Source of the DNA: Shigella phage ESh28
Sequence record: ON528738
Length of the DNA: 64,000 bases
Direction: 5' to 3' (one strand)
The notes beneath the pieces are model-generated. The model was not told where the DNA came from. It was given only the letters and a program-made list of their open reading frames with translations, and did not search any database. Shown one piece after another: positions 9,343 through 59,802 of the stretch. The position numbers were made by a program, and so were the translations under genes. Each line of letters opens with the position of its first letter. The stretch's first letter is position 1.

Positions 9343-9366
9343 AGTCTCCTTCGGGAGACTTTTTTC
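9343..9366 (+). terminator. rho-independent terminator
   Basis: AGTCTCC-TTCG-GGAGACT hairpin followed by T tract. Confidence 0.7.
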
Positions 9367-9375
9367 ATTTTACCG

Positions 9376-9405
9376 GTTTACTTTCCGTTTGAGCTGTGGT
9401 ACTAT
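9376..9405 (+). promoter_or_regulatory. T4-type early promoter
   Basis: GTTTAC ... TGGTACTATAC with shared leader ACAACTATC. Confidence 0.6.
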
Positions 9406-9433
9406 ACAACTATCGGATAAAGAGGAGAACATC

Positions 9434-9622
9434 ATGAAAATTGAAGCACTCAATCAAGAAGGAAATATCTACGTCATCATTAATGGTGATTTTTTCGTCG
9501 ACATGGATGAAGTTACTAGTGAAGAACTTGTAGAACTTCTTAAGAAACGTTATAATATGTGTGATGAAGTTGCAACTCATATGGCGTGTGCAATATTCTC
9601 TCTTTCATATGTGGTGGAATAA
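9434..9622 (+). CDS. hypothetical small protein
   Basis: ATG after AGAGGAG SD (Met 16 of tracked ORF). Confidence 0.45.
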
Positions 9623-13320: not shown

Positions 13321-13345
13321 GGGAGCCTTCGGGCTCCCTTTTTTA
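13321..13345 (+). terminator. rho-independent terminator
   Basis: GGGAGCC-TTCG-GGCTCCC hairpin plus T tract. Confidence 0.7.
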
Positions 13346-13368
13346 TTTCAAAAATTTTTCACAAAGTT

Positions 13369-13398
13369 GTTTACAAGCATAAAGCTTTATGGTACTAT
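13369..13398 (+). promoter_or_regulatory. T4-type early promoter with conserved leader cassette
   Basis: A/T-rich UP, GTTTAC, TATGGTACTATAC, then leader ACAACTATCAACTGATACGGATTTGGAGAATAAAATG. Confidence 0.6.
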
Positions 13399-13432
13399 AC
13401 AACTATCAACTGATACGGATTTGGAGAATAAA

Positions 13433-14401
13433 ATGAAAACTGTAACTATCAATAAGGGTATCTACTTCGGTAAAGAAATCTCTGGAACTTTTGAGCTCTT
13501 AGGCGAATGGTTCCCAGATAATGCTCCGGTAGATGCACAAGGAGATGGTAAAGTTTTTGTTGAAATTGACGGTAAGCGTCGCGGTGTTTGGGTTTACAAA
13601 TCAGACATTTCATATGATGGTGTAAAAGTTGAAGAAGTTAAAGAATCATATGAAGATATGAAAACCCGCATTAATAAAAGATTTAATGTTATGGGAATGA
13701 TGACGAATGGTATTATTAACGGAAACATTCGTTCATTAATTATCTCTGGTGCGGCGGGTATTGGTAAAACGTATTCTTTAGATAAAGCTTTAAATAAAGC
13801 AAATGATATTGGATACATTGAATATAAAAGCATTAACGGTAAAATCTCTGGTATCGGTCTTTATGAACAGCTTTGGAATAATCGTGAAGAGAATTCTGTC
13901 CTTTTGATTGATGATGTGGATGTTTTCTCTGATATGGACATTCTTAATCTTCTAAAAGCTGCTCTGGACACTGGAGAGACCCGTAAAGTCTGCTGGAGCA
14001 CTGCATCTTCTTACTTAGAAGAAAAAGGCATTGAGCGTGAGTTTGAATTTAAAGGAACGATTGTTTTTATCACAAACGTTGACATTGACCGCGAATTAGA
14101 CCGTGGTACTAAACTTGCTCCGCATTTACAAGCATTAGTGTCCCGCTCAGTTTATTTGGATTTGGGTGTTCACACTAATGAAGAAATTATGGTCAGGGTT
14201 GAAGATGTTATTCTTTCAACTGACATGATGCAAAAGCGCGGTCTTTCTGATGAAGAAACTTATAAAGCATTATCATGGATGAAAGTCAATGTTAATCGTT
14301 TACGCAATGTTTCACTGCGTACTGCACTTTATCTTGCTGACTTTATTATGACCGACAAAAATGGTTGGGAAGAAATTGCTGAGGTTACTCTTCTGAAATA
14401 A
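13433..14401 (+). CDS. AAA+ family ATPase
   Basis: Walker A GAAGIGKT and Walker B VLLIDDVD; start ATG is the terminal ATG of the leader cassette. Confidence 0.6.
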   Translation: MKTVTINKGIYFGKEISGTFELLGEWFPDNAPVDAQGDGKVFVEIDGKRRGVWVYKSDISYDGVKVEEVKESYEDMKTRINKRFNVMGMMTNGIINGNIRSLIISGAAGIGKTYSLDKALNKANDIGYIEYKSINGKISGIGLYEQLWNNREENSVLLIDDVDVFSDMDILNLLKAALDTGETRKVCWSTASSYLEEKGIEREFEFKGTIVFITNVDIDRELDRGTKLAPHLQALVSRSVYLDLGVHTNEEIMVRVEDVILSTDMMQKRGLSDEETYKALSWMKVNVNRLRNVSLRTALYLADFIMTDKNGWEEIAEVTLLK

Positions 14402-14499: not shown

Positions 14500-14805
14500 A
14501 TGATGTTATACTCAAAGGCTCGTGAAATTTATGAAACTAAAATTAAAGACGCGGTTCATCAGTTCGCAACGACAATGCGTTGGACAAATGACTGGGAATA
14601 CTCCAAGAATCATAAGAAGCCCTTGGTGACAAGAAAGGCTCATATATTAGTGTTAATAGACCGTGAGCAGATTAAAGCCCGAGAAGCCCTCCAGAATCAT
14701 AAAAAGGCTGCCTTTGAATGGTTTATGGATAACACTGCTCCTGAGACTAAGAAAGCAGTGAGCGCTTGGTTCAGTGGAAAAAATTGTGAAAGAAGTTTCT
14801 TTTAG
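14500..14805 (+). CDS. hypothetical protein
   Basis: GGAGG then ATGATG; start placed at internal Met of tracked ORF. Confidence 0.4.
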   Translation: MMLYSKAREIYETKIKDAVHQFATTMRWTNDWEYSKNHKKPLVTRKAHILVLIDREQIKAREALQNHKKAAFEWFMDNTAPETKKAVSAWFSGKNCERSFF

Positions 14806-14807
14806 TT

Positions 14808-14837
14808 GTTTACAAGACCGTTCCTCTGTGGTACTAT
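14808..14837 (+). promoter_or_regulatory. T4-type early promoter with conserved leader cassette
   Basis: GTTTAC ... TGTGGTACTATACAACTATCAACTACGGAGG. Confidence 0.55.
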
Positions 14838-14865
14838 ACAACTATCAACTACGGAGGAACAGAAA

Positions 14866-15393
14866 ATGAATGCTAAAGATATTTTCAACTTGGTAAACTA
14901 CAATGATGGTAAATTTAAATCTGAAGCTCAAAGCAAGTTCTTTAATGATGTCTCAATCGGTGGTGAAATCACGGTTGATGGAGGACAAATTTACAAATCC
15001 CGTTGGAATTGGATCGTTATTATCGATGAGATTGGTATTGTAGAAATTTACAAGAATACGAATAAAAATCGTACATTACACTGGTCTCGTGATACTAACG
15101 AACAGTACAAAAAGGATAAAGCATCTAAATTATCTCGTGTAACTCAAGAAGATATTGAGTTCATCAAGAAAGATATTTTGATGTATGATAACTTAATTGC
15201 TGAAGAGCAAGCTGTTATTGATAAATTTGACGAGATTAAAGCTTCTCGTGAAATTCCTGATTTTATGAAAGAATCAGTAAATGAACGATACACTCTCATT
15301 TCAGAGCGTATTGAAACTTACAAAAAGCAAAGAGCTGAACGCCAAAATACTCTTCGGAAGTTTGAAGAACGGTTAAAGACGGTACTCGCATAA
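14866..15393 (+). CDS. hypothetical protein with C-terminal coiled coil (family member 0)
   Basis: C-terminal heptad-like ...ERIETYKKQRAERQNTLRKFEERLKTVLA; ATG after GGAGG. Confidence 0.5.
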   Translation: MNAKDIFNLVNYNDGKFKSEAQSKFFNDVSIGGEITVDGGQIYKSRWNWIVIIDEIGIVEIYKNTNKNRTLHWSRDTNEQYKKDKASKLSRVTQEDIEFIKKDILMYDNLIAEEQAVIDKFDEIKASREIPDFMKESVNERYTLISERIETYKKQRAERQNTLRKFEERLKTVLA

Positions 15394-35716: not shown

Positions 35717-36280
35717 ATGAGCTTATTTGAAGATGATATTCAATTAAACGAGCATCAAGTTGCTTGGTATTCAAAAGATTGGACAGCTGTCCAATCCGCT
35801 GCTGATTCTTTTAAAGAAAAAGCTGAAAATGAGTTTTTTGAAATAATTGGAGCTATTAATAATAAAACTAAATGCTCTATTGCTCAAAAAGATTATTCAA
35901 AATTCATGGTTGAAAATGCATTATCACAATTTCCGGAGTGCATGCCAGCTGTATATGCTATGAATTTAATTGGATCAGGTTTAAGCGATGAAGCCCATTT
36001 TAATTATCTGATGGCTGCAGTTCCTCGTGGTAAAAGATATGGTAAATGGGCAAAACTAGTTGAAGATTCCACCGAAGTATTGATTATTAAGTTACTTGCT
36101 AAGCGGTATCAAGTTAATACAAATGATGCAATTAACTATAAATCAATTCTTACTAAAAATGGAAAACTACCTTTAGTATTAAAAGAACTAAAAGGTTTAG
36201 TCACGGATGATTTTTTGAAAGAAGTGACTAAGAACGTAAAAGAACAGAAACAACTCAAAAAACTAGCATTGGAATGGTAA
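35717..36280 (+). CDS. 62: clamp loader small subunit gp62
   Basis: 187 aa from ATG ([14 protein letters not shown]...) just after gene 44 stop. Confidence 0.9.
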
Positions 36281-36281
36281 A

Positions 36282-36650
36282 ATGATTGAAATTACTCTTA
36301 AAAAACCTGAAGATTTTCTGAAAGTAAAAGAAACTTTGACTCGTATGGGAATTGCTAATAATAAAGATAAAGTTCTGTATCAGTCCTGTCATATTCTTCA
36401 GAAAAAAGGACTATACTATATCGTTCATTTTAAAGAAATGCTTCGTATGGATGGACGTCAAGTTGAAATGACAGAAGAAGATGAAGTTCGTCGTGATTCG
36501 ATTGCATGGCTGTTAGAAGATTGGGGACTGATTGAAATCGTCCCTGGTCAAAGAACTTTTATGAAAGATTTAACTAATAACTTCCGAGTTATTTCTTTTA
36601 AACAAAAACATGAATGGAAACTCGTTCCTAAATATACGATTGGTAATTAA
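36282..36650 (+). CDS. regA: translational repressor RegA
   Basis: 122 aa; MIEITLKKPEDFLKVKETLTRMGIANNKDKVLYQSCHILQKKGLYYIVHF matches T4 RegA. Confidence 0.9.
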   Translation: MIEITLKKPEDFLKVKETLTRMGIANNKDKVLYQSCHILQKKGLYYIVHFKEMLRMDGRQVEMTEEDEVRRDSIAWLLEDWGLIEIVPGQRTFMKDLTNNFRVISFKQKHEWKLVPKYTIGN

Positions 36651-36652
36651 GC

Positions 36653-36676
36653 AAGGGGCTTCGGCCCCTTATTTGG
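36653..36676 (+). terminator. rho-independent terminator
   Basis: AAGGGGC-TTCG-GCCCCTT hairpin then T-rich. Confidence 0.7.
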
Positions 36677-36692
36677 AGTATAATATATCAAG

Positions 36693-36728
36693 AGCCTAAT
36701 AACTCGGGCTATAAACTAAGGAATATCT
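36693..36728 (+). promoter_or_regulatory. candidate gp43 translational operator hairpin plus SD
   Basis: GAGCCTAATAACTCGGGCT stem-loop directly 5' of AAGGAA SD and ATG; resembles the autogenous operator described for T4 gene 43. Confidence 0.5.
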
Positions 36729-39425
36729 ATGAAAGAATTTTATATCTCTATCGAAACAGTCGGAAATAATATTGTTGAACGTTATATTGACGAAAATGGA
36801 AAGGAACGTACTCGCGAAGTAGAATATCTTCCGACTATGTTTAGACATTGTAAGGAAGAATCAAAATACAAAGACATTTACGGTAAAAACTGCGCTCCTC
36901 AAAAATTTCCATCAATGAAAGATGCACGAGATTGGATGAAACGAATGGAAGACATCGGTCTCGAAGCTCTCGGTATGAACGATTTTAAACTCGCTTATAT
37001 CAGTGATACATACGGTTCAGAAATTGTTTATGACCGAAAATTTGTTCGTGTAGCTAACTGTGACATTGAGGTTACTGGTGATAAATTTCCTGACCCAATG
37101 AAAGCTGAATATGAAATTGATGCTATCACTCATTACGATTCAATTGATGATCGTTTTTATGTTTTCGACCTTTTGAATTCAATGTATGGTTCAGTATCAA
37201 AATGGGATGCAAAGTTAGCTGCTAAGCTTGACTGTGAAGGTGGTGATGAAGTTCCTCAAGAAATTCTTGACCGAGTAATTTATATGCCATTCGATAATGA
37301 GCGTGATATGCTCATGGAATATATTAATCTTTGGGAACAGAAACGACCTGCTATTTTTACTGGTTGGAATATTGAGGGATTTGACGTTCCGTATATCATG
37401 AATCGTGTTAAAATGGTTCTCGGTGAACGTAGTATGAAACGCTTCTCTCCAATCGGTCGAGTAAAATCTAAACTTATCCAAAATATGTACGGTAGCAAAG
37501 AAATTTATTCTATTGATGGCGTATCTATTCTTGATTATTTAGATTTGTATAAGAAATTCGCATTTACTAATTTGCCGTCATTCTCTTTGGAATCAGTTGC
37601 TCAGCATGAAACCAAAAAAGGTAAATTACCATACGACGGTCCTATTAATAAACTTCGTGAGACTAATCATCAACGATACATTAGTTATAACATCATTGAC
37701 GTAGAATCAGTTCAAGCAATTGATAAAATTCGCGGGTTTATCGATCTAGTTTTAAGTATGTCTTATTACGCTAAAATGCCTTTTTCCGGTGTAATGAGTC
37801 CTATTAAAACCTGGGATGCTATTATTTTTAACTCATTGAAAGGTGAACATAAGGTTATTCCTCAACAAGGTTCGCACGTTAAACAAAGTTTTCCGGGTGC
37901 ATTTGTATTTGAACCTAAACCAATTGCTCGTCGATATATTATGAGTTTTGACTTGACGTCTCTGTATCCGAGCATTATTCGTCAGGTTAACATTAGTCCT
38001 GAGACTATTCGTGGTCAGTTTAAAGTTCATCCAATTCATGAATATATCGCAGGAACAGCTCCTAAACCGAGTGATGAATATTCTTGTTCTCCGAATGGAT
38101 GGATGTACGATAAGCATCAAGAAGGTATCATTCCAAAGGAAATCGCTAAAGTATTTTTCCAGCGTAAAGATTGGAAAAAGAAAATGTTCGCTGAAGAAAT
38201 GAATGCCGAAGCTATTAAAAAGATTATTATGAAAGGCGCAGGGTCTTGTTCAACTAAACCAGAAGTTGAACGATATGTTAAGTTCAGTGATGATTTCTTA
38301 AATGAACTATCGAATTATACTGAATCTGTTCTCAATAGTTTGATTGAAGAATGTGAAAAAGCAGCTACACTTGCTAACACAAATCAGCTGAACCGTAAAA
38401 TTCTTATTAACAGTCTTTACGGTGCTCTTGGTAATATTCATTTCCGTTACTATGATTTGCGAAATGCTACTGCTATCACAATTTTCGGCCAAGTTGGTAT
38501 TCAGTGGATTGCTCGTAAAATTAATGAATATCTGAATAAAGTATGCGGAACTAATGGTGAAGATTTCATCGCAGCAGGTGATACTGATTCGGTATATGTT
38601 TGTGTAGATAAAGTTATTGAAAAAGTCGGTCTTGACCGATTCAAAGAGCAGAACGATTTGGTTGAATTTATGAATCAGTTCGGTAAGAAAAAGATGGAAC
38701 CTATGATTGATGTTGCATATCGTGAGTTATGCGATTATATGAATAACCGCGAGCATCTGATGCATATGGACCGTGAAGCTATTTCTTGCCCTCCGCTTGG
38801 TTCAAAGGGTGTCGGTGGATTTTGGAAAGCGAAAAAGCGTTATGCTCTGAACGTTTATGATATGGAAGATAAGCGATTTGCTGAACCGCATTTAAAAATC
38901 ATGGGTATGGAAACTCAGCAAAGTTCAACGCCTAAAGCGGTCCAAGAAGCTCTTGAAGAAAGTATCCGTCGTATTCTTCAAGAAGGCGAAGAGTCTGTCC
39001 AAGAATACTACAAGAACTTCGAGAAAGAATATCGTCAACTTGACTATAAAGTTATCGCTGAAGTAAAAACTGCGAACGATATAGCGAAATATGACGATAA
39101 AGGTTGGCCAGGATTTAAATGCCCGTTCCACATTCGTGGTGTGCTAACTTATCGTCGAGCTGTTAGTGGTCTGGGTGTAGCTCCAATTTTGGATGGAAAT
39201 AAAGTAATGGTTCTTCCATTACGTGAAGGAAATCCATTTGGTGACAAGTGCATTGCTTGGCCATCGGGTACAGAACTTCCAAAAGAAATTCGTTCTGATG
39301 TGCTATCTTGGATTGACCACTCAACTTTGTTCCAAAAATCGTTTGTTAAACCGCTTGCGGGTATGTGTGAATCGGCTGGCATGGACTATGAAGAAAAAGC
39401 TTCGTTAGACTTCCTGTTTGGCTGA
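36729..39425 (+). CDS. 43: DNA polymerase gp43 (family B, with 3'-5' exonuclease)
   Basis: 898 aa; exo motifs and polymerase motifs SLYPSII, KILINSLYG, GDTDS; near-identical to T4 gp43. Confidence 0.97.
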   Translation: MKEFYISIETVGNNIVERYIDENGKERTREVEYLPTMFRHCKEESKYKDIYGKNCAPQKFPSMKDARDWMKRMEDIGLEALGMNDFKLAYISDTYGSEIVYDRKFVRVANCDIEVTGDKFPDPMKAEYEIDAITHYDSIDDRFYVFDLLNSMYGSVSKWDAKLAAKLDCEGGDEVPQEILDRVIYMPFDNERDMLMEYINLWEQKRPAIFTGWNIEGFDVPYIMNRVKMVLGERSMKRFSPIGRVKSKLIQNMYGSKEIYSIDGVSILDYLDLYKKFAFTNLPSFSLESVAQHETKKGKLPYDGPINKLRETNHQRYISYNIIDVESVQAIDKIRGFIDLVLSMSYYAKMPFSGVMSPIKTWDAIIFNSLKGEHKVIPQQGSHVKQSFPGAFVFEPKPIARRYIMSFDLTSLYPSIIRQVNISPETIRGQFKVHPIHEYIAGTAPKPSDEYSCSPNGWMYDKHQEGIIPKEIAKVFFQRKDWKKKMFAEEMNAEAIKKIIMKGAGSCSTKPEVERYVKFSDDFLNELSNYTESVLNSLIEECEKAATLANTNQLNRKILINSLYGALGNIHFRYYDLRNATAITIFGQVGIQWIARKINEYLNKVCGTNGEDFIAAGDTDSVYVCVDKVIEKVGLDRFKEQNDLVEFMNQFGKKKMEPMIDVAYRELCDYMNNREHLMHMDREAISCPPLGSKGVGGFWKAKKRYALNVYDMEDKRFAEPHLKIMGMETQQSSTPKAVQEALEESIRRILQEGEESVQEYYKNFEKEYRQLDYKVIAEVKTANDIAKYDDKGWPGFKCPFHIRGVLTYRRAVSGLGVAPILDGNKVMVLPLREGNPFGDKCIAWPSGTELPKEIRSDVLSWIDHSTLFQKSFVKPLAGMCESAGMDYEEKASLDFLFG

Positions 39426-39438
39426 TAGAATAAATCTA

Positions 39439-39461
39439 GGGACCTCCAGGTCCCTTTTTCA
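39439..39461 (+). terminator. rho-independent terminator
   Basis: GGGACC-TCCA-GGTCCC hairpin plus T tract. Confidence 0.7.
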
Positions 39462-39542
39462 TACAAGTAATATAAATCTATACTTATGAAAAAGAGATGA
39501 TTCTGGACCCTTTGGATTCCCTAAAAATTTTTTCACAAAACC

Positions 39543-39572
39543 GTTTACATCCCTGTTCTTCTATGGTACTAT
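39543..39572 (+). promoter_or_regulatory. T4-type early promoter with conserved leader cassette
   Basis: UP element, GTTTAC, TATGGTACTATAC, leader ACAACTATCAACTACTGATACGGATTTGGAGAATGAAATG. Confidence 0.6.
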
Positions 39573-39609
39573 ACAACTATCAACTACTGATACGGATTTG
39601 GAGAATGAA

Positions 39610-39990
39610 ATGAAAATCGCTATTTTGGTTATTGCATTAGGTCTTACTGGTTGTGTAGCTCAAGGACCGGTAGTAAATCAGTCTGATGTAGGAAAAATTG
39701 TAAACTGTTCAAGCAAGTTTTATAATCCTAATGTCAAGTGTTATAAAGAAGCTCCAAAGCAGACAGTAGAACAAATGCAGGCGAATTTTGACGAAGCTAT
39801 TCGTCCAGATGAATCTGCTCAAGCATATCGTAATTCGGATGTAATTACACGCGAAGAAAAAATTGAAAACTACTGTGCAGAACTTTGGGCAAATTGGGCT
39901 AATAATTATCAATGGCGTACAGGTAAAAATGCTCCGATGGAGTATGTAGTGAATTCTTATAATTCATGTGTAAAAAATTTGACTAAGTGA
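39610..39990 (+). CDS. predicted lipoprotein
   Basis: Signal peptide with lipobox L-T-G-C (MKIAILVIALGLTGCVAQ); start is the cassette ATG after GGAG. Confidence 0.55.
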   Translation: MKIAILVIALGLTGCVAQGPVVNQSDVGKIVNCSSKFYNPNVKCYKEAPKQTVEQMQANFDEAIRPDESAQAYRNSDVITREEKIENYCAELWANWANNYQWRTGKNAPMEYVVNSYNSCVKNLTK

Positions 39991-39997
39991 GGAAAAC

Positions 39998-40249
39998 ATG
40001 GAAACTTTAGTAGCAGGTTCAATTTTTATGGTTTTAGTTTCAGGTGTGTTGGCTATTATTATATACATGCTTCCATGGTTCATTGCCTTGATGCGTGGGT
40101 CAAAATCGACAGTAGGAATCTTTTTCACATCTTTACTGTTTAACTGGTCAATTATTGGTTGGTTTATTACATTTATTTGGTCAATTGCGGGTGAAACTAA
40201 AAAGTCTGCACAACCAAATCAGGTAATTATCATCAGAGAGAAGGAATGA
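39998..40249 (+). CDS. imm: superinfection immunity protein Imm
   Basis: 83 aa two-TM protein; sequence and position (between 43 and 42) match T4 Imm. Confidence 0.8.
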   Translation: METLVAGSIFMVLVSGVLAIIIYMLPWFIALMRGSKSTVGIFFTSLLFNWSIIGWFITFIWSIAGETKKSAQPNQVIIIREKE

Positions 40250-40395
40250 AAAGCAAAATTATAACAGTGTTGCTTTTAATCTTGATGATTATAATAAGTA
40301 TATACTATAGTGTAACGGTTCCTCCTATGATTCCAACTATTATTTTAGGTTGGGGTTTATTACTGTTACAAGTTAAATATGAATGTATCAATTGA
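40246..40395 (+). CDS. possible small membrane peptide (49 aa)
   Basis: Untracked hydrophobic ORF, ATGA overlap with imm stop. Confidence 0.35.
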   Translation: MKSKIITVLLLILMIIISIYYSVTVPPMIPTIILGWGLLLLQVKYECIN

Positions 40396-40402
40396 GGTTT
40401 AA

Positions 40403-41143
40403 ATGATTAGTGACTCTATGACAGTTGAAGAAATCCGTCTTCATTTGGGGCTTGCATTAAAAGAAAAAGATTTCGTAGTTGATAAAACTGGTGTTAAAAC
40501 TATTGAAATTATTGGCGCATCATTTGTAGCAGATGAACCGTTTATTTTTGGCGCTCTTAATGATGAATACATTCAGCGTGAACTTGAATGGTACAAGTCT
40601 CAAAGTCTGTTTGTTAAAGATATTCCAGGTGAAACACCAAAGATTTGGCAGCAGGTAGCATCTTCTAAAGGCGAAATTAACTCGAATTATGGTTGGGCTA
40701 TTTGGTCAGAAGATAACTATGCCCAGTATGATATGTGTTTAGCTGAACTTGGTCAAAATCCTGATTCTCGACGTGGCATCATGATTTATACTCGTCCATC
40801 TATGCAGTTTGACTACAATAAAGATGGTATGTCAGATTTCATGTGTACGAATACAGTACAGTACCTGATTCGTGATAAGAAAGTCAATGCAGTAGTAAGC
40901 ATGCGCTCAAATGACGTGGTCTTCGGATTCCGCAATGATTATGCATGGCAAAAATACGTACTAGATAAATTAGTATCTGATTTGAATGCAGGCGATTCAA
41001 CTCGTCAGTATAAAGCAGGTTCTATTATATGGAATGTCGGAAGTCTTCATGTATATTCTCGTCATTTTTACTTGGTTGATCATTGGTGGAATACTGGCGA
41101 AACTCATATTGTGAAAAAAGATTATAACGGTGAGTGGAAATGA
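40403..41143 (+). CDS. 42: dCMP hydroxymethylase gp42
   Basis: 246 aa; thymidylate-synthase-like fold; matches T4 gp42. Confidence 0.9.
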   Translation: MISDSMTVEEIRLHLGLALKEKDFVVDKTGVKTIEIIGASFVADEPFIFGALNDEYIQRELEWYKSQSLFVKDIPGETPKIWQQVASSKGEINSNYGWAIWSEDNYAQYDMCLAELGQNPDSRRGIMIYTRPSMQFDYNKDGMSDFMCTNTVQYLIRDKKVNAVVSMRSNDVVFGFRNDYAWQKYVLDKLVSDLNAGDSTRQYKAGSIIWNVGSLHVYSRHFYLVDHWWNTGETHIVKKDYNGEWK

Positions 41144-41982
41144 TTCAATTCGTAATTCCAAGCTATCAACGTGTAGGGGCAGTTTCTGCCCTTGATATGT
41201 TTCCGACTGATTATGAACCGCATATTGTAGTGCGTGAACACGAAGAAAAAGCTTATTATGATGCCTATGGGTCTAGAGCTAAAATTATAACTATTCCTGA
41301 TGATGTTAATGGAATTTCCGGTACTCGTAAAGCAATTACTGATATGTATGCAGGTCAACGAATCTGGATGATTGACGATGATACTACTATTCGTATGAGT
41401 TCAATACGAAAAAGAGATGATCGCCGATGTGTAGATAAAATTAATCAATTAACTCGTGAACAGTTCTATGAATTGATTCAATACGTTGAGGATGCCATGG
41501 ATTGTGGGTATTATCATGGCCATGCTCGTCTACCAATTTTTAAAATTACTTCATCTTGGGGTAATTATCGTGAAAATTCATATGGATTCACAAATACATG
41601 GTATGACCTTGGAAAACTTACGACAGAACAAATTGGGTATGGAAAAATTGATTTATGTGAAGATATGTATGCATTTCTCAATTTAATTAATCAAGGTTAT
41701 CCGCATTTGGCCTTGTTCAAATATCTGGTTGTATCTGGAAAAGCACAGGCTCCTGGCGGGTGCAGTTCAATTCGTAGTAATTCTAAACATAATAGAGCGC
41801 TTGAGCAAATCAATAGAGAGTTTCCAGAGCAAGCTCGTTGGAAAACTTCTAATATTGAAAAACGAAAATCGTTGGGTGAAGAAGACGAACCATTAAAGGT
41901 TCTTCGCATGTGTGTTTCGCGCAAAGAAAAATCAGAAGCATTTCATAAGTTTAATGTTATTCATCCAATAGCAGTTGATTAA
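41140..41982 (+). CDS. glycosyltransferase at the beta-gt position; candidate beta-glucosyl-HMC-alpha-glucosyltransferase (T2/T6 type)
   Basis: About 280 aa, unlike T4 beta-gt (351 aa, MKIAIINMG...); occupies slot between 42 and uvsX; DDD motif. Confidence 0.55.
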   Translation: MIQFVIPSYQRVGAVSALDMFPTDYEPHIVVREHEEKAYYDAYGSRAKIITIPDDVNGISGTRKAITDMYAGQRIWMIDDDTTIRMSSIRKRDDRRCVDKINQLTREQFYELIQYVEDAMDCGYYHGHARLPIFKITSSWGNYRENSYGFTNTWYDLGKLTTEQIGYGKIDLCEDMYAFLNLINQGYPHLALFKYLVVSGKAQAPGGCSSIRSNSKHNRALEQINREFPEQARWKTSNIEKRKSLGEEDEPLKVLRMCVSRKEKSEAFHKFNVIHPIAVD

Positions 41983-42006
41983 TGCCTAAATTTATTGTGT
42001 TATAAT
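41983..42006 (+). promoter_or_regulatory. candidate middle promoter upstream of uvsX
   Basis: MotA-box-like TGCCTAA about 11 bp upstream of TATAAT. Confidence 0.4.
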
Positions 42007-42059
42007 TACTCTATCTTTAACCAGTGAGGAAAATATAATGATGCCTATGGAAAAAATGA

Positions 42060-43241
42060 ATGTCTATTGCAGATTTAAAATCCCGTTTGATTAAAGCTTC
42101 CACTTCTAAAATGACTGCTGAACTGACTACATCTAAATTCTTTAATGAAAAGGATGTAATTCGTACAAAAATTCCAATGCTTAATATTGCTATTTCTGGT
42201 GCGATTGATGGCGGTATGCAGTCTGGTTTAACTATTTTCGCAGGGCCTTCTAAACACTTTAAATCAAATATGTCTTTGACTATGGTTGCGGCATATTTAA
42301 ACAAATATCCTGACGCGGTTTGTCTATTCTATGATAGTGAATTTGGTATTACTCCAGCTTATTTGCGATCCATGGGAGTTGACCCGGAACGAGTAATTCA
42401 TACGCCAATCCAGTCAGTTGAACAGCTGAAAATTGATATGGTGAATCAGCTTGAAGCTATTGAGCGCGGTGAAAAAGTTATTGTATTCATCGACTCAATC
42501 GGTAATATGGCTTCTAAGAAAGAAACGGAAGATGCCTTGAATGAAAAATCTGTGGCAGATATGACTCGTGCTAAATCACTGAAGTCATTATTCCGTATTG
42601 TTACTCCTTACTTTAGCATTAAAAATATTCCATGTGTTGCGGTTAACCATACAATTGAAACAATTGAAATGTTTAGTAAAACCGTGATGACAGGTGGTAC
42701 AGGCGTAATGTATTCGGCTGATACCGTATTCATTATCGGTAAGCGTCAGATTAAAGATGGTTCTGATCTTCAGGGGTATCAATTTGTTCTAAATGTAGAA
42801 AAATCTCGTACCGTTAAAGAAAAAAGTAAATTCTTTATTGATGTTAAATTTGATGGTGGTATCGATCCTTATTCTGGATTGTTAGATATGGCTCTAGAAT
42901 TAGGATTTGTGGTAAAACCTAAAAATGGCTGGTATGCTCGTGAATTTCTTGATGAAGAAACTGGCGAGATGATTCGCGAAGAAAAATCTTGGCGCGCAAA
43001 AGATACCAACTGCACTACATTCTGGGGTCCTTTATTTAAGCATCAACCATTCCGAGATGCTATTAAACGTGCTTATCAGTTAGGTGCTATTGATAGTAAT
43101 GAAATTGTTGAAGCTGAAGTTGATGAATTGATTAACTCAAAGGTTGAAAAATTTAAATCTCCGGAAAGTAAAAGTAAATCAGCTGCTGATTTAGAAACTG
43201 ACCTCGAGCAGTTAAGTGATATGGAAGAATTTAATGAATAA
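42060..43241 (+). CDS. uvsX: recombinase UvsX (RecA-like)
   Basis: 393 aa; Walker A GPSKHFKS; near-identical to T4 UvsX. Confidence 0.95.
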   Translation: MSIADLKSRLIKASTSKMTAELTTSKFFNEKDVIRTKIPMLNIAISGAIDGGMQSGLTIFAGPSKHFKSNMSLTMVAAYLNKYPDAVCLFYDSEFGITPAYLRSMGVDPERVIHTPIQSVEQLKIDMVNQLEAIERGEKVIVFIDSIGNMASKKETEDALNEKSVADMTRAKSLKSLFRIVTPYFSIKNIPCVAVNHTIETIEMFSKTVMTGGTGVMYSADTVFIIGKRQIKDGSDLQGYQFVLNVEKSRTVKEKSKFFIDVKFDGGIDPYSGLLDMALELGFVVKPKNGWYAREFLDEETGEMIREEKSWRAKDTNCTTFWGPLFKHQPFRDAIKRAYQLGAIDSNEIVEAEVDELINSKVEKFKSPESKSKSAADLETDLEQLSDMEEFNE

Positions 43242-43578
43242 AGATGATTTAGACTTAGATCTAGAAATTATCGATGAATCCCCCTCTTCGGAGGGGGAAG
43301 AAGAAAGAAAAGAACGTCTTTTTAATGAATCTCTTAAGATAATTAAATCCGCTATGGAAAATGTTATCCAGGAGATTGTCATTAAACTAGAAGATGGTTC
43401 TACGCATATAGTATATGTAACAAAACTGGATTGGGTTAATGGAAAGGTTGTAATGGACTTTGCTGTTCTTGACCAAGAAAGAAAAGCTGAGTTAGCTCCT
43501 CATGTAGAAAAATGTATTACAATGCAACTACAAGATGCATTTAATAAAAGGTCAAAGAAAAAATTTAAATTCTTTTAA
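43234..43578 (+). CDS. 40: gp40-like head vertex assembly protein (positional call)
   Basis: ORF between uvsX and 41; ATG overlapping uvsX stop. Confidence 0.5.
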   Translation: MNKDDLDLDLEIIDESPSSEGEEERKERLFNESLKIIKSAMENVIQEIVIKLEDGSTHIVYVTKLDWVNGKVVMDFAVLDQERKAELAPHVEKCITMQLQDAFNKRSKKKFKFF

Positions 43579-45575: not shown

Positions 45576-45869
45576 ATGAAAAAATTTATCTTTGCTACAA
45601 TTTTTGCTTTAGCTTCTTGTGCTGCTCAGCCTGCTATGGCAGGATATGATAAAGATTTGTGTGAATGGTCTATGACTGCAGATCAGACTGAAGTTGAAAC
45701 TCAAATTGAAGCGGATATTATGAATATCGTTGAGCGCGATCGTCCTGAAATGAAAGCTGAAGTGCAAAAACAACTTAAGTCTGGTGGTGTAATGCAGTAT
45801 AATTATGTTCTGTATTGCGATAAAAACTTTAATAACAAAAATATCGTAACCGAAATCACAGGCGAATAA
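45576..45869 (+). CDS. sp: Spackle periplasmic protein Sp
   Basis: 97 aa with signal peptide MKKFIFATIFALASCAAQPAMA; matches T4 Sp. Confidence 0.8.
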   Translation: MKKFIFATIFALASCAAQPAMAGYDKDLCEWSMTADQTEVETQIEADIMNIVERDRPEMKAEVQKQLKSGGVMQYNYVLYCDKNFNNKNIVTEITGE

Positions 45870-57703: not shown

Positions 57704-58192
57704 ATGATTATTAATATTGGTGAAATTGCTCGTGTATCTGATAAATCCTGCTCTAAAGCAGCAGGAAAATTGGTCGAAATTGTAAGCATTCAGCTTAAAC
57801 ACGGTGTTAAAGATGAAGATTCTGAAGTAAAAGTGCGTATCATTCCTAAAGATGGAAAGTCTAAACCTCAGTTTGGCTATGTTCGTGCGAAATTTCTTGA
57901 ATCTGCGTTTTTGAAAGCTGTTCCCGCTAAAGGAATTGAAACGATTGATACTTCGCATGTAGGTGTAGACTTTAAGTGGAAACTCGGTCAAGCTATTAAG
58001 TTCATTGCTCCTTGTGAATTTAAATTTATCAAAGATGATGGAAAGGCTGCTTATACTCGCGCTATGTGTGGATACATTACCGATCAATGGGTAGAAGATG
58101 GCGTTAAGTTGTACAACGTGGTATTTTTAGGAACATACAAAGTCATTCCTGAAAGTTGGATTAAACACTATAGCAATGCTCTCTATGCATAA
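57704..58192 (+). CDS. MotB-like protein (positional and size match to T4 MotB)
   Basis: 162 aa; CGYITDQWVEDGVKLYNVV. Confidence 0.45.
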   Translation: MIINIGEIARVSDKSCSKAAGKLVEIVSIQLKHGVKDEDSEVKVRIIPKDGKSKPQFGYVRAKFLESAFLKAVPAKGIETIDTSHVGVDFKWKLGQAIKFIAPCEFKFIKDDGKAAYTRAMCGYITDQWVEDGVKLYNVVFLGTYKVIPESWIKHYSNALYA

Positions 58193-58207
58193 AGTTTAAA
58201 ATTTTTT

Positions 58208-58262
58208 CATAAAACTATATACATCAGTAGTTGATTATGGTACTATATCAATATCAACTACT
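58208..58262 (+). promoter_or_regulatory. promoter stem-loop cassette (PeSL-like)
   Basis: Perfect 11-bp inverted repeat CAGTAGTTGAT / ATCAACTACTG flanking TATGGTACTATAT; followed by GGAGAATAAAATG. Confidence 0.5.
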
Positions 58263-58364
58263 GATATAGAAAACAACTTGGAGAATAAAATGGATAATTC
58301 GTTAAAGGTGCTGATACTCTTCTGAAACGCATCGCTCCAATGTTCAATTAATGAGGAAATTGTA

Positions 58365-59541: not shown

Positions 59542-59802
59542 ATGAAATATGTTAATCGTTCTATCGCGGCATTAGTATTAGCAGTATCTTTAGTAGGATG
59601 TACTGATGCTGATAATGCAACCAAAGTTTTGTCTTCAAGTGGTTTTACTAATATTGAAATCACTGGATATAATTGGTTCGGTTGCTCTGAAAATGATTTC
59701 CAGCATACTGGATTTCGTGCTATTGGACCTACCGGGCAGAAAGTAGAAGGAACAGTATGTTCTGGTCTATTCTTCAAGGATTCGACTATCCGTTTTAAAT
59801 AA
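59542..59802 (+). CDS. predicted lipoprotein
   Basis: Signal peptide with lipobox LVGC. Confidence 0.5.
   Translation: MKYVNRSIAALVLAVSLVGCTDADNATKVLSSSGFTNIEITGYNWFGCSENDFQHTGFRAIGPTGQKVEGTVCSGLFFKDSTIRFK

What the first reader, a model, noticed from the sequence alone, without database searches (positions are those of the whole stretch)
39543..39990. Lipoprotein gene delivered by an early promoter cassette directly upstream of imm
ORF 39610-39990 starts on the cassette ATG, carries a signal peptide with lipobox L-T-G-C, and sits immediately 5' of the superinfection immunity gene imm. Phage lipoproteins at the envelope commonly mediate superinfection exclusion or receptor masking.
Basis: partly seen in the sequence, partly recalled or inferred. 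Interest (0 to 1): 0.5.

Follow-up and report, generated by a model that had tools for sequence, protein, structure and literature searches.

The report
T4 imm.1 lipoprotein gene beside imm
The flagged ORF is the T4-type phage gene imm.1: an early-expressed, probably outer-membrane lipoprotein of unknown function that stays next to the superinfection-immunity gene imm in most T4-like phages, so it may assist in blocking secondary infection, though this is untested.

Summary
Window 39610-39990 (+) encodes a 126-aa protein that is 99% identical to T4 Imm.1 (Pfam DUF5481, phrog_1754). It has a canonical lipoprotein signal, MKIAILVIALG-LTGC. It lies 7 nt upstream of imm and downstream of a T4 early promoter whose 21-nt core recurs five times in the window (0 expected by chance).

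The gene is already known. T4 omics show early RNA and early protein, and two T4 screens call it dispensable. Its function is uncharacterised.

What I add is comparative. The lipobox Cys and a C-terminal Cys pair are conserved across the family. phrog_1754 lipoproteins sit beside imm in 13 of 15 T4-like lineages examined. They can be upstream or downstream of imm, sometimes overlapping it by 4 nt, and in Mosigvirus the pair has moved to sit next to spackle. Two genera keep the lipoprotein without imm.

"Delivered by the cassette" is not supported. The promoter/ATG junction is an indel hot spot where other ORFs come and go, while imm.1-imm stays constant. Receptor masking is unlikely, because Imm.1 is about 98% identical in T4 and T2.

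My best reading is an early outer-membrane-anchored periplasmic accessory of the Imm/Spackle immunity apparatus. The role in immunity is inferred, with about 0.35-0.4 probability. Interest is modest.

The parts
39438..39460 (+). Intrinsic terminator hairpin after gene 43 (AGGGACC-TCCA-GGTCCCT followed by TTTTT). This is the stem-loop part of the promoter-early/stem-loop (PeSL-type) unit.
   Evidence: 7 pairs, 5 G-C, T-run. (-12 kcal/mol, z -3.2). Annotated as a terminator in phage e11/2.
39522..39572 (+). T4-type immediate-early sigma-70 promoter. It has an A/T-rich UP-like tract (39522-39540), -35 GTTTAC (39543-39548), TGn (39564-39566) and -10 TACTAT (39567-39572). The transcription start is inferred near 39579.
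   Evidence: Early-promoter architecture UP/-35/TGn/-10 as described in PMC2988021. T4 imm.1 RNA is classed as early (PMC9697503 supplements).
39564..39615 (+). Repeated cassette segment: extended -10, 5'UTR, SD GGAG (39600-39603), and ATG plus the first Lys codon. Other copies have their cores at 13390-13410, 14829-14849, 9397-9417 and 58238-58258.
   Evidence: PeSL cassettes ending in an SD and a start codon are described in PMC2839356.
39610..39990 (+). imm.1 CDS, 126 aa. The signal peptide is aa 1-14 (39610-39651), the lipobox LTGC is 39643-39654, and the lipidated Cys15 is 39652-39654. The mature protein is 111 aa: a flexible N-terminal tether (about aa 16-50) followed by a small helical domain (helices 53-64, 68-75, 81-104, 110-125). 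Cys pairs are C33/C44 and C89/C120.
   Evidence: DUF5481, 239 bits; phrog_1754, 5e-44; 99% to T4 Imm.1; AF2; synonymous far outnumber non-synonymous changes.
39989..39992 (+). SD (GAGG) of imm, overlapping the imm.1 stop codon. No promoter or terminator lies between the two genes, so both are read from one mRNA.
39998..40249 (+). imm, the superinfection immunity inner-membrane protein (83 aa).
   Evidence: Imm binds the tape-measure protein gp29 (preprint 10.64898/2026.03.06.709160).
40246..40395 (+). 49-aa hydrophobic ORF (phrog_3610; relatives carry Pfam PF26865 Phage_T4_Y02C). It overlaps the imm stop by 4 nt and is the third, facultative member of the cluster.

Best explanation
Window 39610-39990 is the orthologue of bacteriophage T4 gene imm.1.

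Shown:
- It is a real, constrained, early-expressed gene, transcribed from a strong T4 immediate-early promoter on the same mRNA as imm.
- Its product carries a canonical lipoprotein signal.
- The lipidation Cys and a C-terminal Cys pair are conserved through the family.
- The family (Pfam DUF5481, within phrog_1754) is confined to T4-like phages and is almost always adjacent to imm.

Inferred from sequence rules:
- The precursor is exported by Sec, diacylglycerol-modified by Lgt at Cys15, cleaved by signal peptidase II and N-acylated.
- Because position +2 is Val (never Asp in any relative), the Lol system sends it to the inner leaflet of the outer membrane.
- There, a roughly 35-residue flexible tether lets a small disulfide-stabilised helical domain reach into the periplasm.

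Inferred from linkage only:
- Within the first minutes of infection this periplasmic domain acts as an accessory of the superinfection-immunity apparatus (Imm blocks the gp29 tape-measure channel at the inner membrane; Spackle blocks the gp5 lysozyme).
- It most likely engages the incoming tail-tip/tape-measure complex, or Imm itself, from the outer-membrane side.
- It is not required for Imm's basic activity, and it is not a receptor mask.

My confidences differ by step: identity as imm.1 about 0.99, exported lipoprotein about 0.85-0.9, outer-membrane location about 0.6, role in superinfection immunity about 0.35-0.4.
For: Identity:
- 124/125 residues identical to T4 Imm.1.
- DUF5481 at 239 bits against a 27-bit cut-off; phrog_1754 at 5e-44.
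- 501 phage records carry a copy at 95% identity or more.

Expression and dispensability in T4:
- Early RNA and early protein (PMC9697503 supplements 4 and 6).
- CRISPRi-ART 'Not Fit' (score -0.77, p 0.98) and 31/31 insertions tolerated in HIDEN-SEQ. This is what one expects of a competition gene.

Constraint:
- 6-12 synonymous against 1-4 non-synonymous codon differences among window, T4, T2 and e11/2.

Lipoprotein:
- The rule-based signal is met.
- G-1 is invariant, and L-3 and the Cys are nearly invariant, in alignments of 12 and 22 sequences.
- The one T4-versus-window substitution is LAGC to LTGC, and both are allowed.
- The +2 residue is V, A, G, Q or S in the sequences read, never D.
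- UniRef names relatives 'Lipoprotein'.

Periplasmic fold:
- C89 and C120 are invariant or nearly so, lying across a confident helical hairpin (pLDDT about 90).
- C33/C44 are gained or lost together.

Linkage to imm:
- Adjacent in Tequatrovirus (T4, T2, e11/2, window), four metagenomic DUF5481 lineages, Mosigvirus, Gelderlandvirus, Jiaodavirus, Muldoonvirus and P0022 (all upstream of imm).
- Adjacent in Gaprivervirus, Dhakavirus, P0019 and P0015 (downstream of imm).
- 4-nt overlaps with imm in PS2, P0022 and P0019 suggest translational coupling.
- In Mosigvirus the pair has moved between genes 41 and 61, directly next to spackle.
- All these lipoproteins hit phrog_1754 over the full length (1.6e-15 to 4.5e-52).
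- Record counts agree: about 656-690 + 132 + 148 lipoprotein-bearing records against 1001 Imm-bearing records, which include non-T4 phages.
Against: - No experiment links Imm.1 to exclusion.
- Imm alone, from a plasmid, excludes T4 and binds gp29.
- From memory (Lu & Henning, J Virol 1989), interrupting imm alone abolishes immunity although imm.1 lies upstream. If so, Imm.1 is not sufficient on its own.
- Kanagawavirus CIP9 has the lipoprotein but no Imm anywhere in its genome (best E 0.16, against 1e-33 for the positive control). Winklervirus Gravdalen lacks imm at this locus. The protein must therefore have some Imm-independent value.
- One lineage (P0004) has lost the lipidated Cys, so anchoring is not indispensable.
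- Non-T4 phages carry Imm without any such lipoprotein.
- Structure prediction is poor for the N-terminal half (mean pLDDT 64-65), and no fold relative was found. There is no structural clue to a target.
- Adjacency could partly reflect shared residence in a non-essential early region.
Confidence: 0.45

Rival explanations
1. Imm.1 is an envelope or periplasmic protein whose job is unrelated to superinfection immunity. Examples would be countering an envelope-based host defence, tuning envelope integrity or lysis timing, or excluding unrelated competitors. On this view it is next to imm only because both are small, non-essential early genes sharing one early transcript downstream of gene 43.
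For: - The lipoprotein persists without Imm in Kanagawavirus CIP9 (whole genome searched) and at the Winklervirus Gravdalen locus.
- In those phages it still keeps the position after gene 43 and the 47-aa Y02C-like peptide.
- It is non-essential, with no fitness effect in the laboratory.
- Imm works alone.
- It evolves much faster than Imm: 33% against about 64% identity between Tequatrovirus and Mosigvirus.
Against: - The pair moved together to a different genome position in Mosigvirus, landing beside spackle.
- Gene order flips (upstream or downstream of imm) while adjacency is kept.
- 4-nt overlaps with imm occur in three lineages.
- 13 of 15 lineages keep the pair.
Confidence: 0.3
2. Imm.1 is a stand-alone superinfection-exclusion lipoprotein of the T5 Llp / phi80 Cor type. 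It would bind and inactivate the phage's outer-membrane receptor.
For: - It is an early, small lipoprotein predicted to sit at the outer membrane.
- Weak hits of relatives to the Cor PHROG (phrog_1119, E 0.0008-0.035) exist, but they cover only the signal-peptide region.
Against: - The window protein itself has no hit to Cor or Llp families.
- The protein is about 98-99% identical in T4 and T2 and in phages of many host genera. T4 and T2 use different receptors (OmpC/LPS against OmpF/FadL; textbook knowledge). Receptor-specific binders should diverge with the adhesin.
- One lineage has lost the lipid anchor.
Confidence: 0.08
3. The N-terminal hydrophobic stretch is an uncleaved membrane anchor or an ordinary signal peptidase I signal, so the protein is not lipidated. 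This matches the database label 'predicted membrane protein'.
For: - T4 annotations call it a 'hypothetical predicted membrane protein'.
- P0004 has an SPase-I-like AHA|S site instead of the Cys.
- Spackle in the same window has a lipobox-like LASC, yet is described in the literature as a soluble periplasmic protein (PMC7677548 abstract).
Against: - The lipobox Cys is kept in 11/12 and 21/22 aligned sequences, with invariant Gly at -1.
- The h-region is only 9 residues, too short for a stable transmembrane helix.
- No other hydrophobic segment exists (maximum 19-aa hydropathy 0.23 in the mature part).
Confidence: 0.07

Closest known systems
Bacteriophage T4 Imm.1 (gene imm.1, T4p046, UniProt P18057; Pfam DUF5481/PF17578; phrog_1754)
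   Same: 124/125 identical residues. Same position (43 | imm.1 | imm | 49-aa ORF | 42), and the same promoter, terminator and 5'UTR almost base for base.
   Different: One lipobox substitution (LAGC to LTGC). A 1-nt indel at the 3' end gives 126 rather than 125 aa, and closes the upstream in-frame ATG of imm.
T4 Imm (PF14373) and Spackle (PF25676), the two known T4 superinfection-immunity proteins
   Same: Early expression, envelope location and dispensability in the laboratory. Genes are clustered: imm.1-imm everywhere, and imm.1-imm-sp contiguous in Mosigvirus.
   Different: No sequence or fold similarity to either. Imm is an inner-membrane helical protein that binds gp29. Spackle is a soluble periplasmic inhibitor of the gp5 lysozyme. 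No target is known for Imm.1.
Superinfection-exclusion lipoproteins Llp (T5) and Cor (phi80/N15/HK022)
   Same: A small phage-encoded lipoprotein made early, predicted to face the periplasm from the outer membrane.
   Different: No homology: only signal-peptide-level hits of relatives to phrog_1119. Llp and Cor block FhuA, the phage's own receptor. Imm.1's near-identity in T4 and T2, which use different receptors, argues against that mode.
PeSL (promoter-early/stem-loop) mobile regulatory cassettes of T4-type phages (Arbiol et al. 2010, PMC2839356; Comeau et al. 2014, PMC4122927)
   Same: A stem-loop terminator plus a strong early promoter plus SD and start codon. It is repeated in the genome and sits at an insertion/deletion junction for small ORFs.
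   Different: Here the stem-loop lies about 85 nt upstream of the -35, rather than inside the promoter. The gene behind the cassette is not an ORFan but a family conserved across genera.
Outer-membrane lipoproteins with long disordered tethers that reach inner-membrane partners (E. coli LpoA/LpoB, RcsF)
   Same: Lipobox, no Asp at +2, a roughly 35-residue low-confidence/disordered linker, then a small folded domain. This is an analogy from textbook knowledge, not a tested relationship.
   Different: No sequence or fold relationship. The reach to the inner membrane is only a geometric possibility.

Membership tests
T4 Imm.1 / Pfam DUF5481 / phrog_1754 | Sequence match above the curated threshold over the full domain | tested here: met
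   PF17578 at 239.2 bits against a cut-off of 27, profile positions 1-103/103. phrog_1754 at 5e-44, 2-148/148. 99% identity to T4 Imm.1.
T4 Imm.1 / Pfam DUF5481 / phrog_1754 | Genomic position adjacent to imm in a T4-like phage | tested here: met
   imm starts 7 nt after the stop codon. The same holds in 13 of 15 lineages.
Bacterial-type lipoprotein (Lgt/LspA/Lnt substrate; PROSITE PS51257 class) | Positively charged n-region, a 7-22-residue hydrophobic h-region, and lipobox [LVI][ASTVI][GAS]-C with the Cys within the first ~35 residues | tested here: met
   MK-IAILVIALG-LTG-C15 passes both patterns. The lipobox is conserved in 11/12 and 21/22 homologues.
Bacterial-type lipoprotein (Lgt/LspA/Lnt substrate; PROSITE PS51257 class) | Actual lipid modification and signal peptidase II (globomycin-sensitive) cleavage | not testable with these tools
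   Needs palmitate labelling, globomycin treatment or mass spectrometry. No SignalP or LipoP was available either.
Outer-membrane-sorted lipoprotein (Lol pathway) | No Lol-avoidance signal (Asp at +2) | tested here: met
   +2 is Val here. It is A, G, V, Q or S in the relatives read, never D. This is a prediction only.
Receptor-blocking Sie lipoproteins (T5 Llp, Cor) | Homology to Llp or Cor families | tested here: not met
   The window protein has no hit. Relatives touch phrog_1119 only in the signal peptide (E 0.0008-0.035).
Receptor-blocking Sie lipoproteins (T5 Llp, Cor) | Specificity matched to the phage's own receptor | tested here: not met
   Imm.1 is about 98-99% identical in T4 and T2 and in phages from six or more host genera. 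T4 and T2 use different receptors (textbook knowledge).
T4 Spackle (PF25676) | Sequence match to the Spackle family | tested here: not met
   No match. Spackle is a separate gene at window 45576-45869.
o-spanin (Rz1-type outer-membrane lipoprotein of lysis cassettes) | Paired with or embedded in an i-spanin gene in a late lysis cassette | tested here: not met
   The neighbours are gene 43, imm and gene 42. The gene has an early promoter and its product is an early protein.
PeSL regulatory cassette | Stem-loop plus strong early promoter plus SD/ATG, repeated in the genome, flanking variable ORFs | tested here: met
   Hairpin at 39438-39455. Five cassette copies against 0 expected. The cassette lies at the junction of the 78-aa (e11/2) and 83-aa (T2) ORF indels. 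Definition taken from PMC2839356.
Component of T4 superinfection immunity (functional class) | Loss reduces, or expression confers, exclusion of secondary phage | not testable with these tools
   Only guilt by association is available. The published screens measured plaque or lytic fitness, not exclusion.

The most novel reading that the evidence does not exclude
T4-type superinfection immunity would be a three-part, trans-envelope module rather than Imm acting alone. The parts would be an outer-membrane lipoprotein (Imm.1, phrog_1754), the inner-membrane protein Imm, and the 47-49-aa membrane peptide Y02C. Imm.1 would be the most widely retained member. From the outer-membrane side it would capture the incoming tail-tip/tape-measure complex, or position Imm at the penetration site. 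This would explain how immunity is established within a minute or two. Imm.1's rapid divergence would reflect an arms race with the tail tips of competing T-even relatives.
Probability: 0.22. Interest if true: 0.6.

Novelty: already known. Interest (0 to 1): 0.33.

Why it matters
T4 superinfection immunity is a classic, 70-year-old phenomenon. Its molecular basis is only now being resolved: Spackle-gp5 in 2020 and Imm-gp29 in a 2026 preprint. Imm.1 is expressed early and lies on the same predicted early transcript as imm. It has been ignored or mis-annotated, as 'iduronate sulfatase', 'immunity protein' or 'membrane protein'.

Showing that a lipoprotein of one family accompanies imm across T4-like genera gives a concrete, cheap hypothesis to test, namely delta-imm.1 phage and Imm.1 plus Imm co-expression. 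It would also correct the annotations. If Imm.1 turns out to be irrelevant to immunity, it remains one of many conserved envelope proteins of unknown function in T-even phages.

Tried and rejected
- Word-indexed protein search with the single sequence found only near-identical proteins. The exhaustive representative search found just six clusters, so the Pfam family is tiny.
- HMM and BLAST of mature sequences did not connect the DUF5481 core with the SP18, IME08, S16, PS2 and Nispero lipoproteins (hhalign 76% over 26 columns only). The connection came from phrog_1754.
- Two AlphaFold2 runs (6-row and 22-row alignments) gave mean pLDDT 64-65. Only the C-terminal helical hairpin was confident.
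- Foldseek against the PDB gave nothing below E = 1. Against BFVD it found only family members. No fold-based function can be proposed.
- Rfam found nothing in 36000-43500.
- NCBIfam gave only noise. The RefSeq label 'iduronate sulfatase' has no support.
- The generic sigma-70 scan is not above background in this A/T-rich DNA, so I relied on cassette repetition instead.
- Literature searches for 'imm.1' were swamped by journal abbreviations. The classic papers (Miller 2003; Lu & Henning 1989 and 1993) are not held, so what I say about them is from memory.
- I rejected these readings: spurious ORF, given proteomics plus purifying selection; o-spanin, given the wrong context and timing; receptor mask, for the reasons given under the rival explanations.

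Full report
WHAT IS THERE

The window is a Tequatrovirus (T4/T2-type) genome segment, read opposite to the conventional T4 map. The gene order is as follows:
- DNA polymerase gp43 (36729-39425)
- the flagged ORF (39610-39990)
- imm (39998-40249)
- a 49-aa hydrophobic ORF (40246-40395)
- dCMP hydroxymethylase gp42 (40403-41143)
- a T2/T6-type beta-glucosyl-HMC-alpha-glucosyltransferase (41134-41982)
- uvsX

The 1-kb region matches 518 phage records at 90-99% identity. The flagged ORF translates to 126 aa and is 124/125 identical to T4 Imm.1. It hits Pfam DUF5481 at 239 bits (cut-off 27) and phrog_1754, 'unknown function'.

CHECKING THE OBSERVATION

The start is ATG 39610, with GGAG six bases upstream. 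The N-terminus MKIAILVIALGLTGC has a Lys n-region, a nine-residue very hydrophobic core and the lipobox L-T-G-C. It passes the PROSITE-type pattern and the strict lipobox rule. Only 4 of 536 Met-starts in the window do so. The mature part has no hydrophobic segment.

Upstream there is a gene-43 terminator hairpin at 39438-39455 (-12 kcal/mol, z -3.2). After it comes a T4-style early promoter: an A/T tract, GTTTAC, then TGgTACTAT.

The generic promoter scan is not above chance in this A/T-rich DNA. The cassette is. Its 21-nt core occurs five times, all on the + strand, against none in 100 shuffles. The copy at 13388-13438 matches through the 5'UTR, SD and ATG. This matches the 'uber' UP/-35/TGn/-10 early promoters reviewed in PMC2988021. 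It also matches the PeSL cassettes, which end with an SD and a start codon (PMC2839356).

IS IT A REAL, EXPRESSED GENE?

Yes.
- Among window, T4, T2 and e11/2, codon differences are 6-12 synonymous against 1-4 non-synonymous.
- In T4, imm.1 is classed 'early RNA, early protein' in time-resolved transcriptome and proteome data (PMC9697503 supplements).
- It is dispensable. It is 'Not Fit' in CRISPRi-ART (PMC11879866 supplement), and 31/31 insertions are tolerated in HIDEN-SEQ (bioRxiv 10.1101/2025.11.20.689424 supplement).

No paper I could search assigns it a function. One comparative paper merely assumes it is involved in superinfection exclusion (PMC5885020). The 2026 preprint showing that Imm binds the tape-measure protein gp29 does not mention it.

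FAMILY AND CONSERVED FEATURES

The Pfam family is tiny: six clusters at 50% identity among 1.8 billion representatives. Five of the six keep the lipobox. One (P0004) has Phe in place of the Cys and an AHA|S site, which looks like a soluble periplasmic variant.

Looking next to imm in genera where DUF5481 is not detected, I found lipoprotein genes in each. These were S16 gp27, Nispero gp23, PS2 gp047, SP18 gp045 and IME08 orf44. Direct HMM and BLAST linkage to DUF5481 is weak. However, all of them match phrog_1754 over its full length, with E from 1.6e-15 to 4.5e-52.

Alignments of 12 and 22 sequences show the following:
- Invariant in both: K2, the Gly before the lipid Cys, and C120. M1 is invariant only in the 22-sequence alignment.
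- C89 is invariant in the 12-sequence alignment and nearly invariant in the 22-sequence one.
- L-3 and Cys15 are nearly invariant in both.
- A middle Cys pair is present or absent as a pair (NCSS...KC, or NQCGNNC, or none).

AlphaFold2 gives a low-confidence N-terminal portion of about 40 residues. It gives a confident helical hairpin (81-104 and 110-125, pLDDT about 90) that carries C89 and C120. This picture is what one expects of an exported, disulfide-bonded periplasmic domain: a lipid anchor, a flexible tether and a small helical knob. No fold relatives exist outside the family.

LINKAGE TO imm

Lipoprotein upstream of imm:
- T4, T2, e11/2 and the window
- metagenomic lineages P0004, P0005 and P0007
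- Mosigvirus, Gelderlandvirus (S16, ABTNLPp2), Jiaodavirus, Muldoonvirus PS2, and P0022

Lipoprotein downstream of imm:
- Gaprivervirus SP18, Dhakavirus, P0019 and P0015
- sometimes with the 47-aa peptide in between

In PS2, P0022 and P0019 the two genes overlap by 4 nt.

In Mosigvirus the pair is not behind gene 43. It lies between genes 41 and 61, in the order dmd, 61.4, lipoprotein, imm, spackle, adfA. The pair has thus been kept through a relocation, and it sits with the other superinfection gene.

Record counts are consistent with near-universal co-occurrence in T4-like phages. About 656-690 + 132 + 148 records carry the lipoprotein, against 1001 with Imm. The Imm total includes non-T4 phages that have Imm alone.

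There are exceptions. Kanagawavirus CIP9 has 43 | lipoprotein | SIS isomerase | 47-aa peptide, and no Imm anywhere in its genome. Winklervirus Gravdalen has the same local arrangement. The 47-49-aa peptide (phrog_3610; PF26865 Y02C) is a third, facultative member.

THE CASSETTE STORY

The T4 and window arrangement fuses the cassette ATG to imm.1.

In e11/2 the same ATGAAAAT... starts a 78-aa signal-peptide ORF. imm.1 follows with its own SD. The 247-bp difference is flanked by the 14-nt repeat ATGAAAATYGYTAT.

In T2 the promoter is followed by an unrelated 83-aa ORF.

So the promoter/ATG junction is a recombination hot spot for small ORFs, as described for PeSLs. imm.1-imm is the stable cargo. 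It was not 'delivered' by the cassette.

MECHANISM

Shown: identity, early expression in T4, a conserved lipoprotein signal, conserved Cys pairs, and linkage with imm.

Inferred from rules: Sec/Lgt/LspA/Lnt processing, and Lol sorting to the outer membrane (the +2 residue is never Asp).

Inferred from linkage: an accessory role in the early envelope defence against secondary phage, alongside Imm (which blocks the gp29 channel) and Spackle (which inhibits gp5). It would most plausibly act from the outer-membrane side on the penetrating tail tip or on Imm.

Receptor masking is unlikely, for two reasons. The protein is nearly identical in T4 and T2, which use different receptors (textbook knowledge). 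T4-infected cells still adsorb secondary phage (established knowledge).

Imm.1 is not needed for Imm's basic activity, and it can exist without Imm. An Imm-independent function is therefore a serious rival.

VERDICT

This is a correct observation of an already known, uncharacterised T4 gene. The lipoprotein call is well supported. The functional idea is plausible, sharpened by comparative genomics, and unproven. Interest is modest.

Noticed in passing
window 40246-40395 (+); T4 NC_000866.4 locus L002 4228-4377 (-): A 49-aa hydrophobic ORF overlaps the imm stop by 4 nt (phrog_3610; relatives carry Pfam PF26865 Phage_T4_Y02C). It is intact in T4 but not annotated in the T4 RefSeq record. It is found in 10 loci, including the imm-less CIP9 and Gravdalen. 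It is absent near imm in Mosigvirus, S16, Nispero, PS2 and L007.
   Followed up: partly
window 39960-40000; L002 4610-4665: The 94-aa N-terminally extended Imm, used for cryo-EM in the 2026 preprint, cannot be made by this phage. A 1-nt indel relative to T4 puts the upstream ATG out of frame, and it also lengthens Imm.1 from 125 to 126 aa. This supports the 83-aa start as the conserved one.
   Followed up: yes
between window 39572 and 39610; L001 1711-1947; L016 249-500: The slot between the early promoter and imm.1 is polymorphic among Tequatroviruses. It is empty in the window and T4. e11/2-type phages have a 78-aa ORF with a signal peptide, flanked by the 14-nt repeat ATGAAAATYGYTAT. T2 has an unrelated 83-aa ORF. 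Neither extra ORF has a Pfam match.
   Followed up: partly
T4 RefSeq NC_000866.4 T4p046 and many GenBank phage records: imm.1 orthologues are labelled 'iduronate sulfatase', 'immunity protein', 'Phage immunity' or 'membrane protein'. Pfam, PHROGs and NCBIfam support none of these beyond DUF5481/phrog_1754. UniRef calls some relatives 'Lipoprotein'.
   Followed up: yes
window 45576-45869 (+): Spackle (PF25676, E 3.5e-45) starts MKKFIFATIFALASC, which passes my strict lipobox rule. The literature nevertheless describes Spackle as a periplasmic protein. This is either a false positive of the rule or a point worth re-examining.
   Followed up: no
window 59542-59802 (+): An 86-aa ORF has a strict lipoprotein signal (MKYVNRSIAALVLAVSLVGC) and no Pfam match. 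It is another candidate early lipoprotein.
   Followed up: no
window 13341-13455, 14780-14895, 9350-9465, 58189-58305 (+): Four further copies of the early-promoter cassette. The one at 13341 shares the whole 5'UTR, SD and ATG-AAA with the imm.1 copy, and it drives a 323-aa AAA/STAND-like NTPase ORF (13430-14401).
   Followed up: partly
L006 718-1086 (metagenomic contig, protein P0004): One Imm.1 lineage has replaced the lipidated Cys by Phe and has an AHA|S signal-peptidase-I-like site. It is still followed by imm and the 49-aa ORF, but is preceded by an frd.3-like gene rather than gene 43.
   Followed up: partly
L017 (Enterobacter phage CIP9) and L018 (Erwinia phage Gravdalen): In these genera the position of imm is occupied by a SIS-domain sugar isomerase gene, between the lipoprotein and the 47-aa peptide. 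CIP9 has no Imm homologue anywhere in its 175-kb genome.
   Followed up: yes
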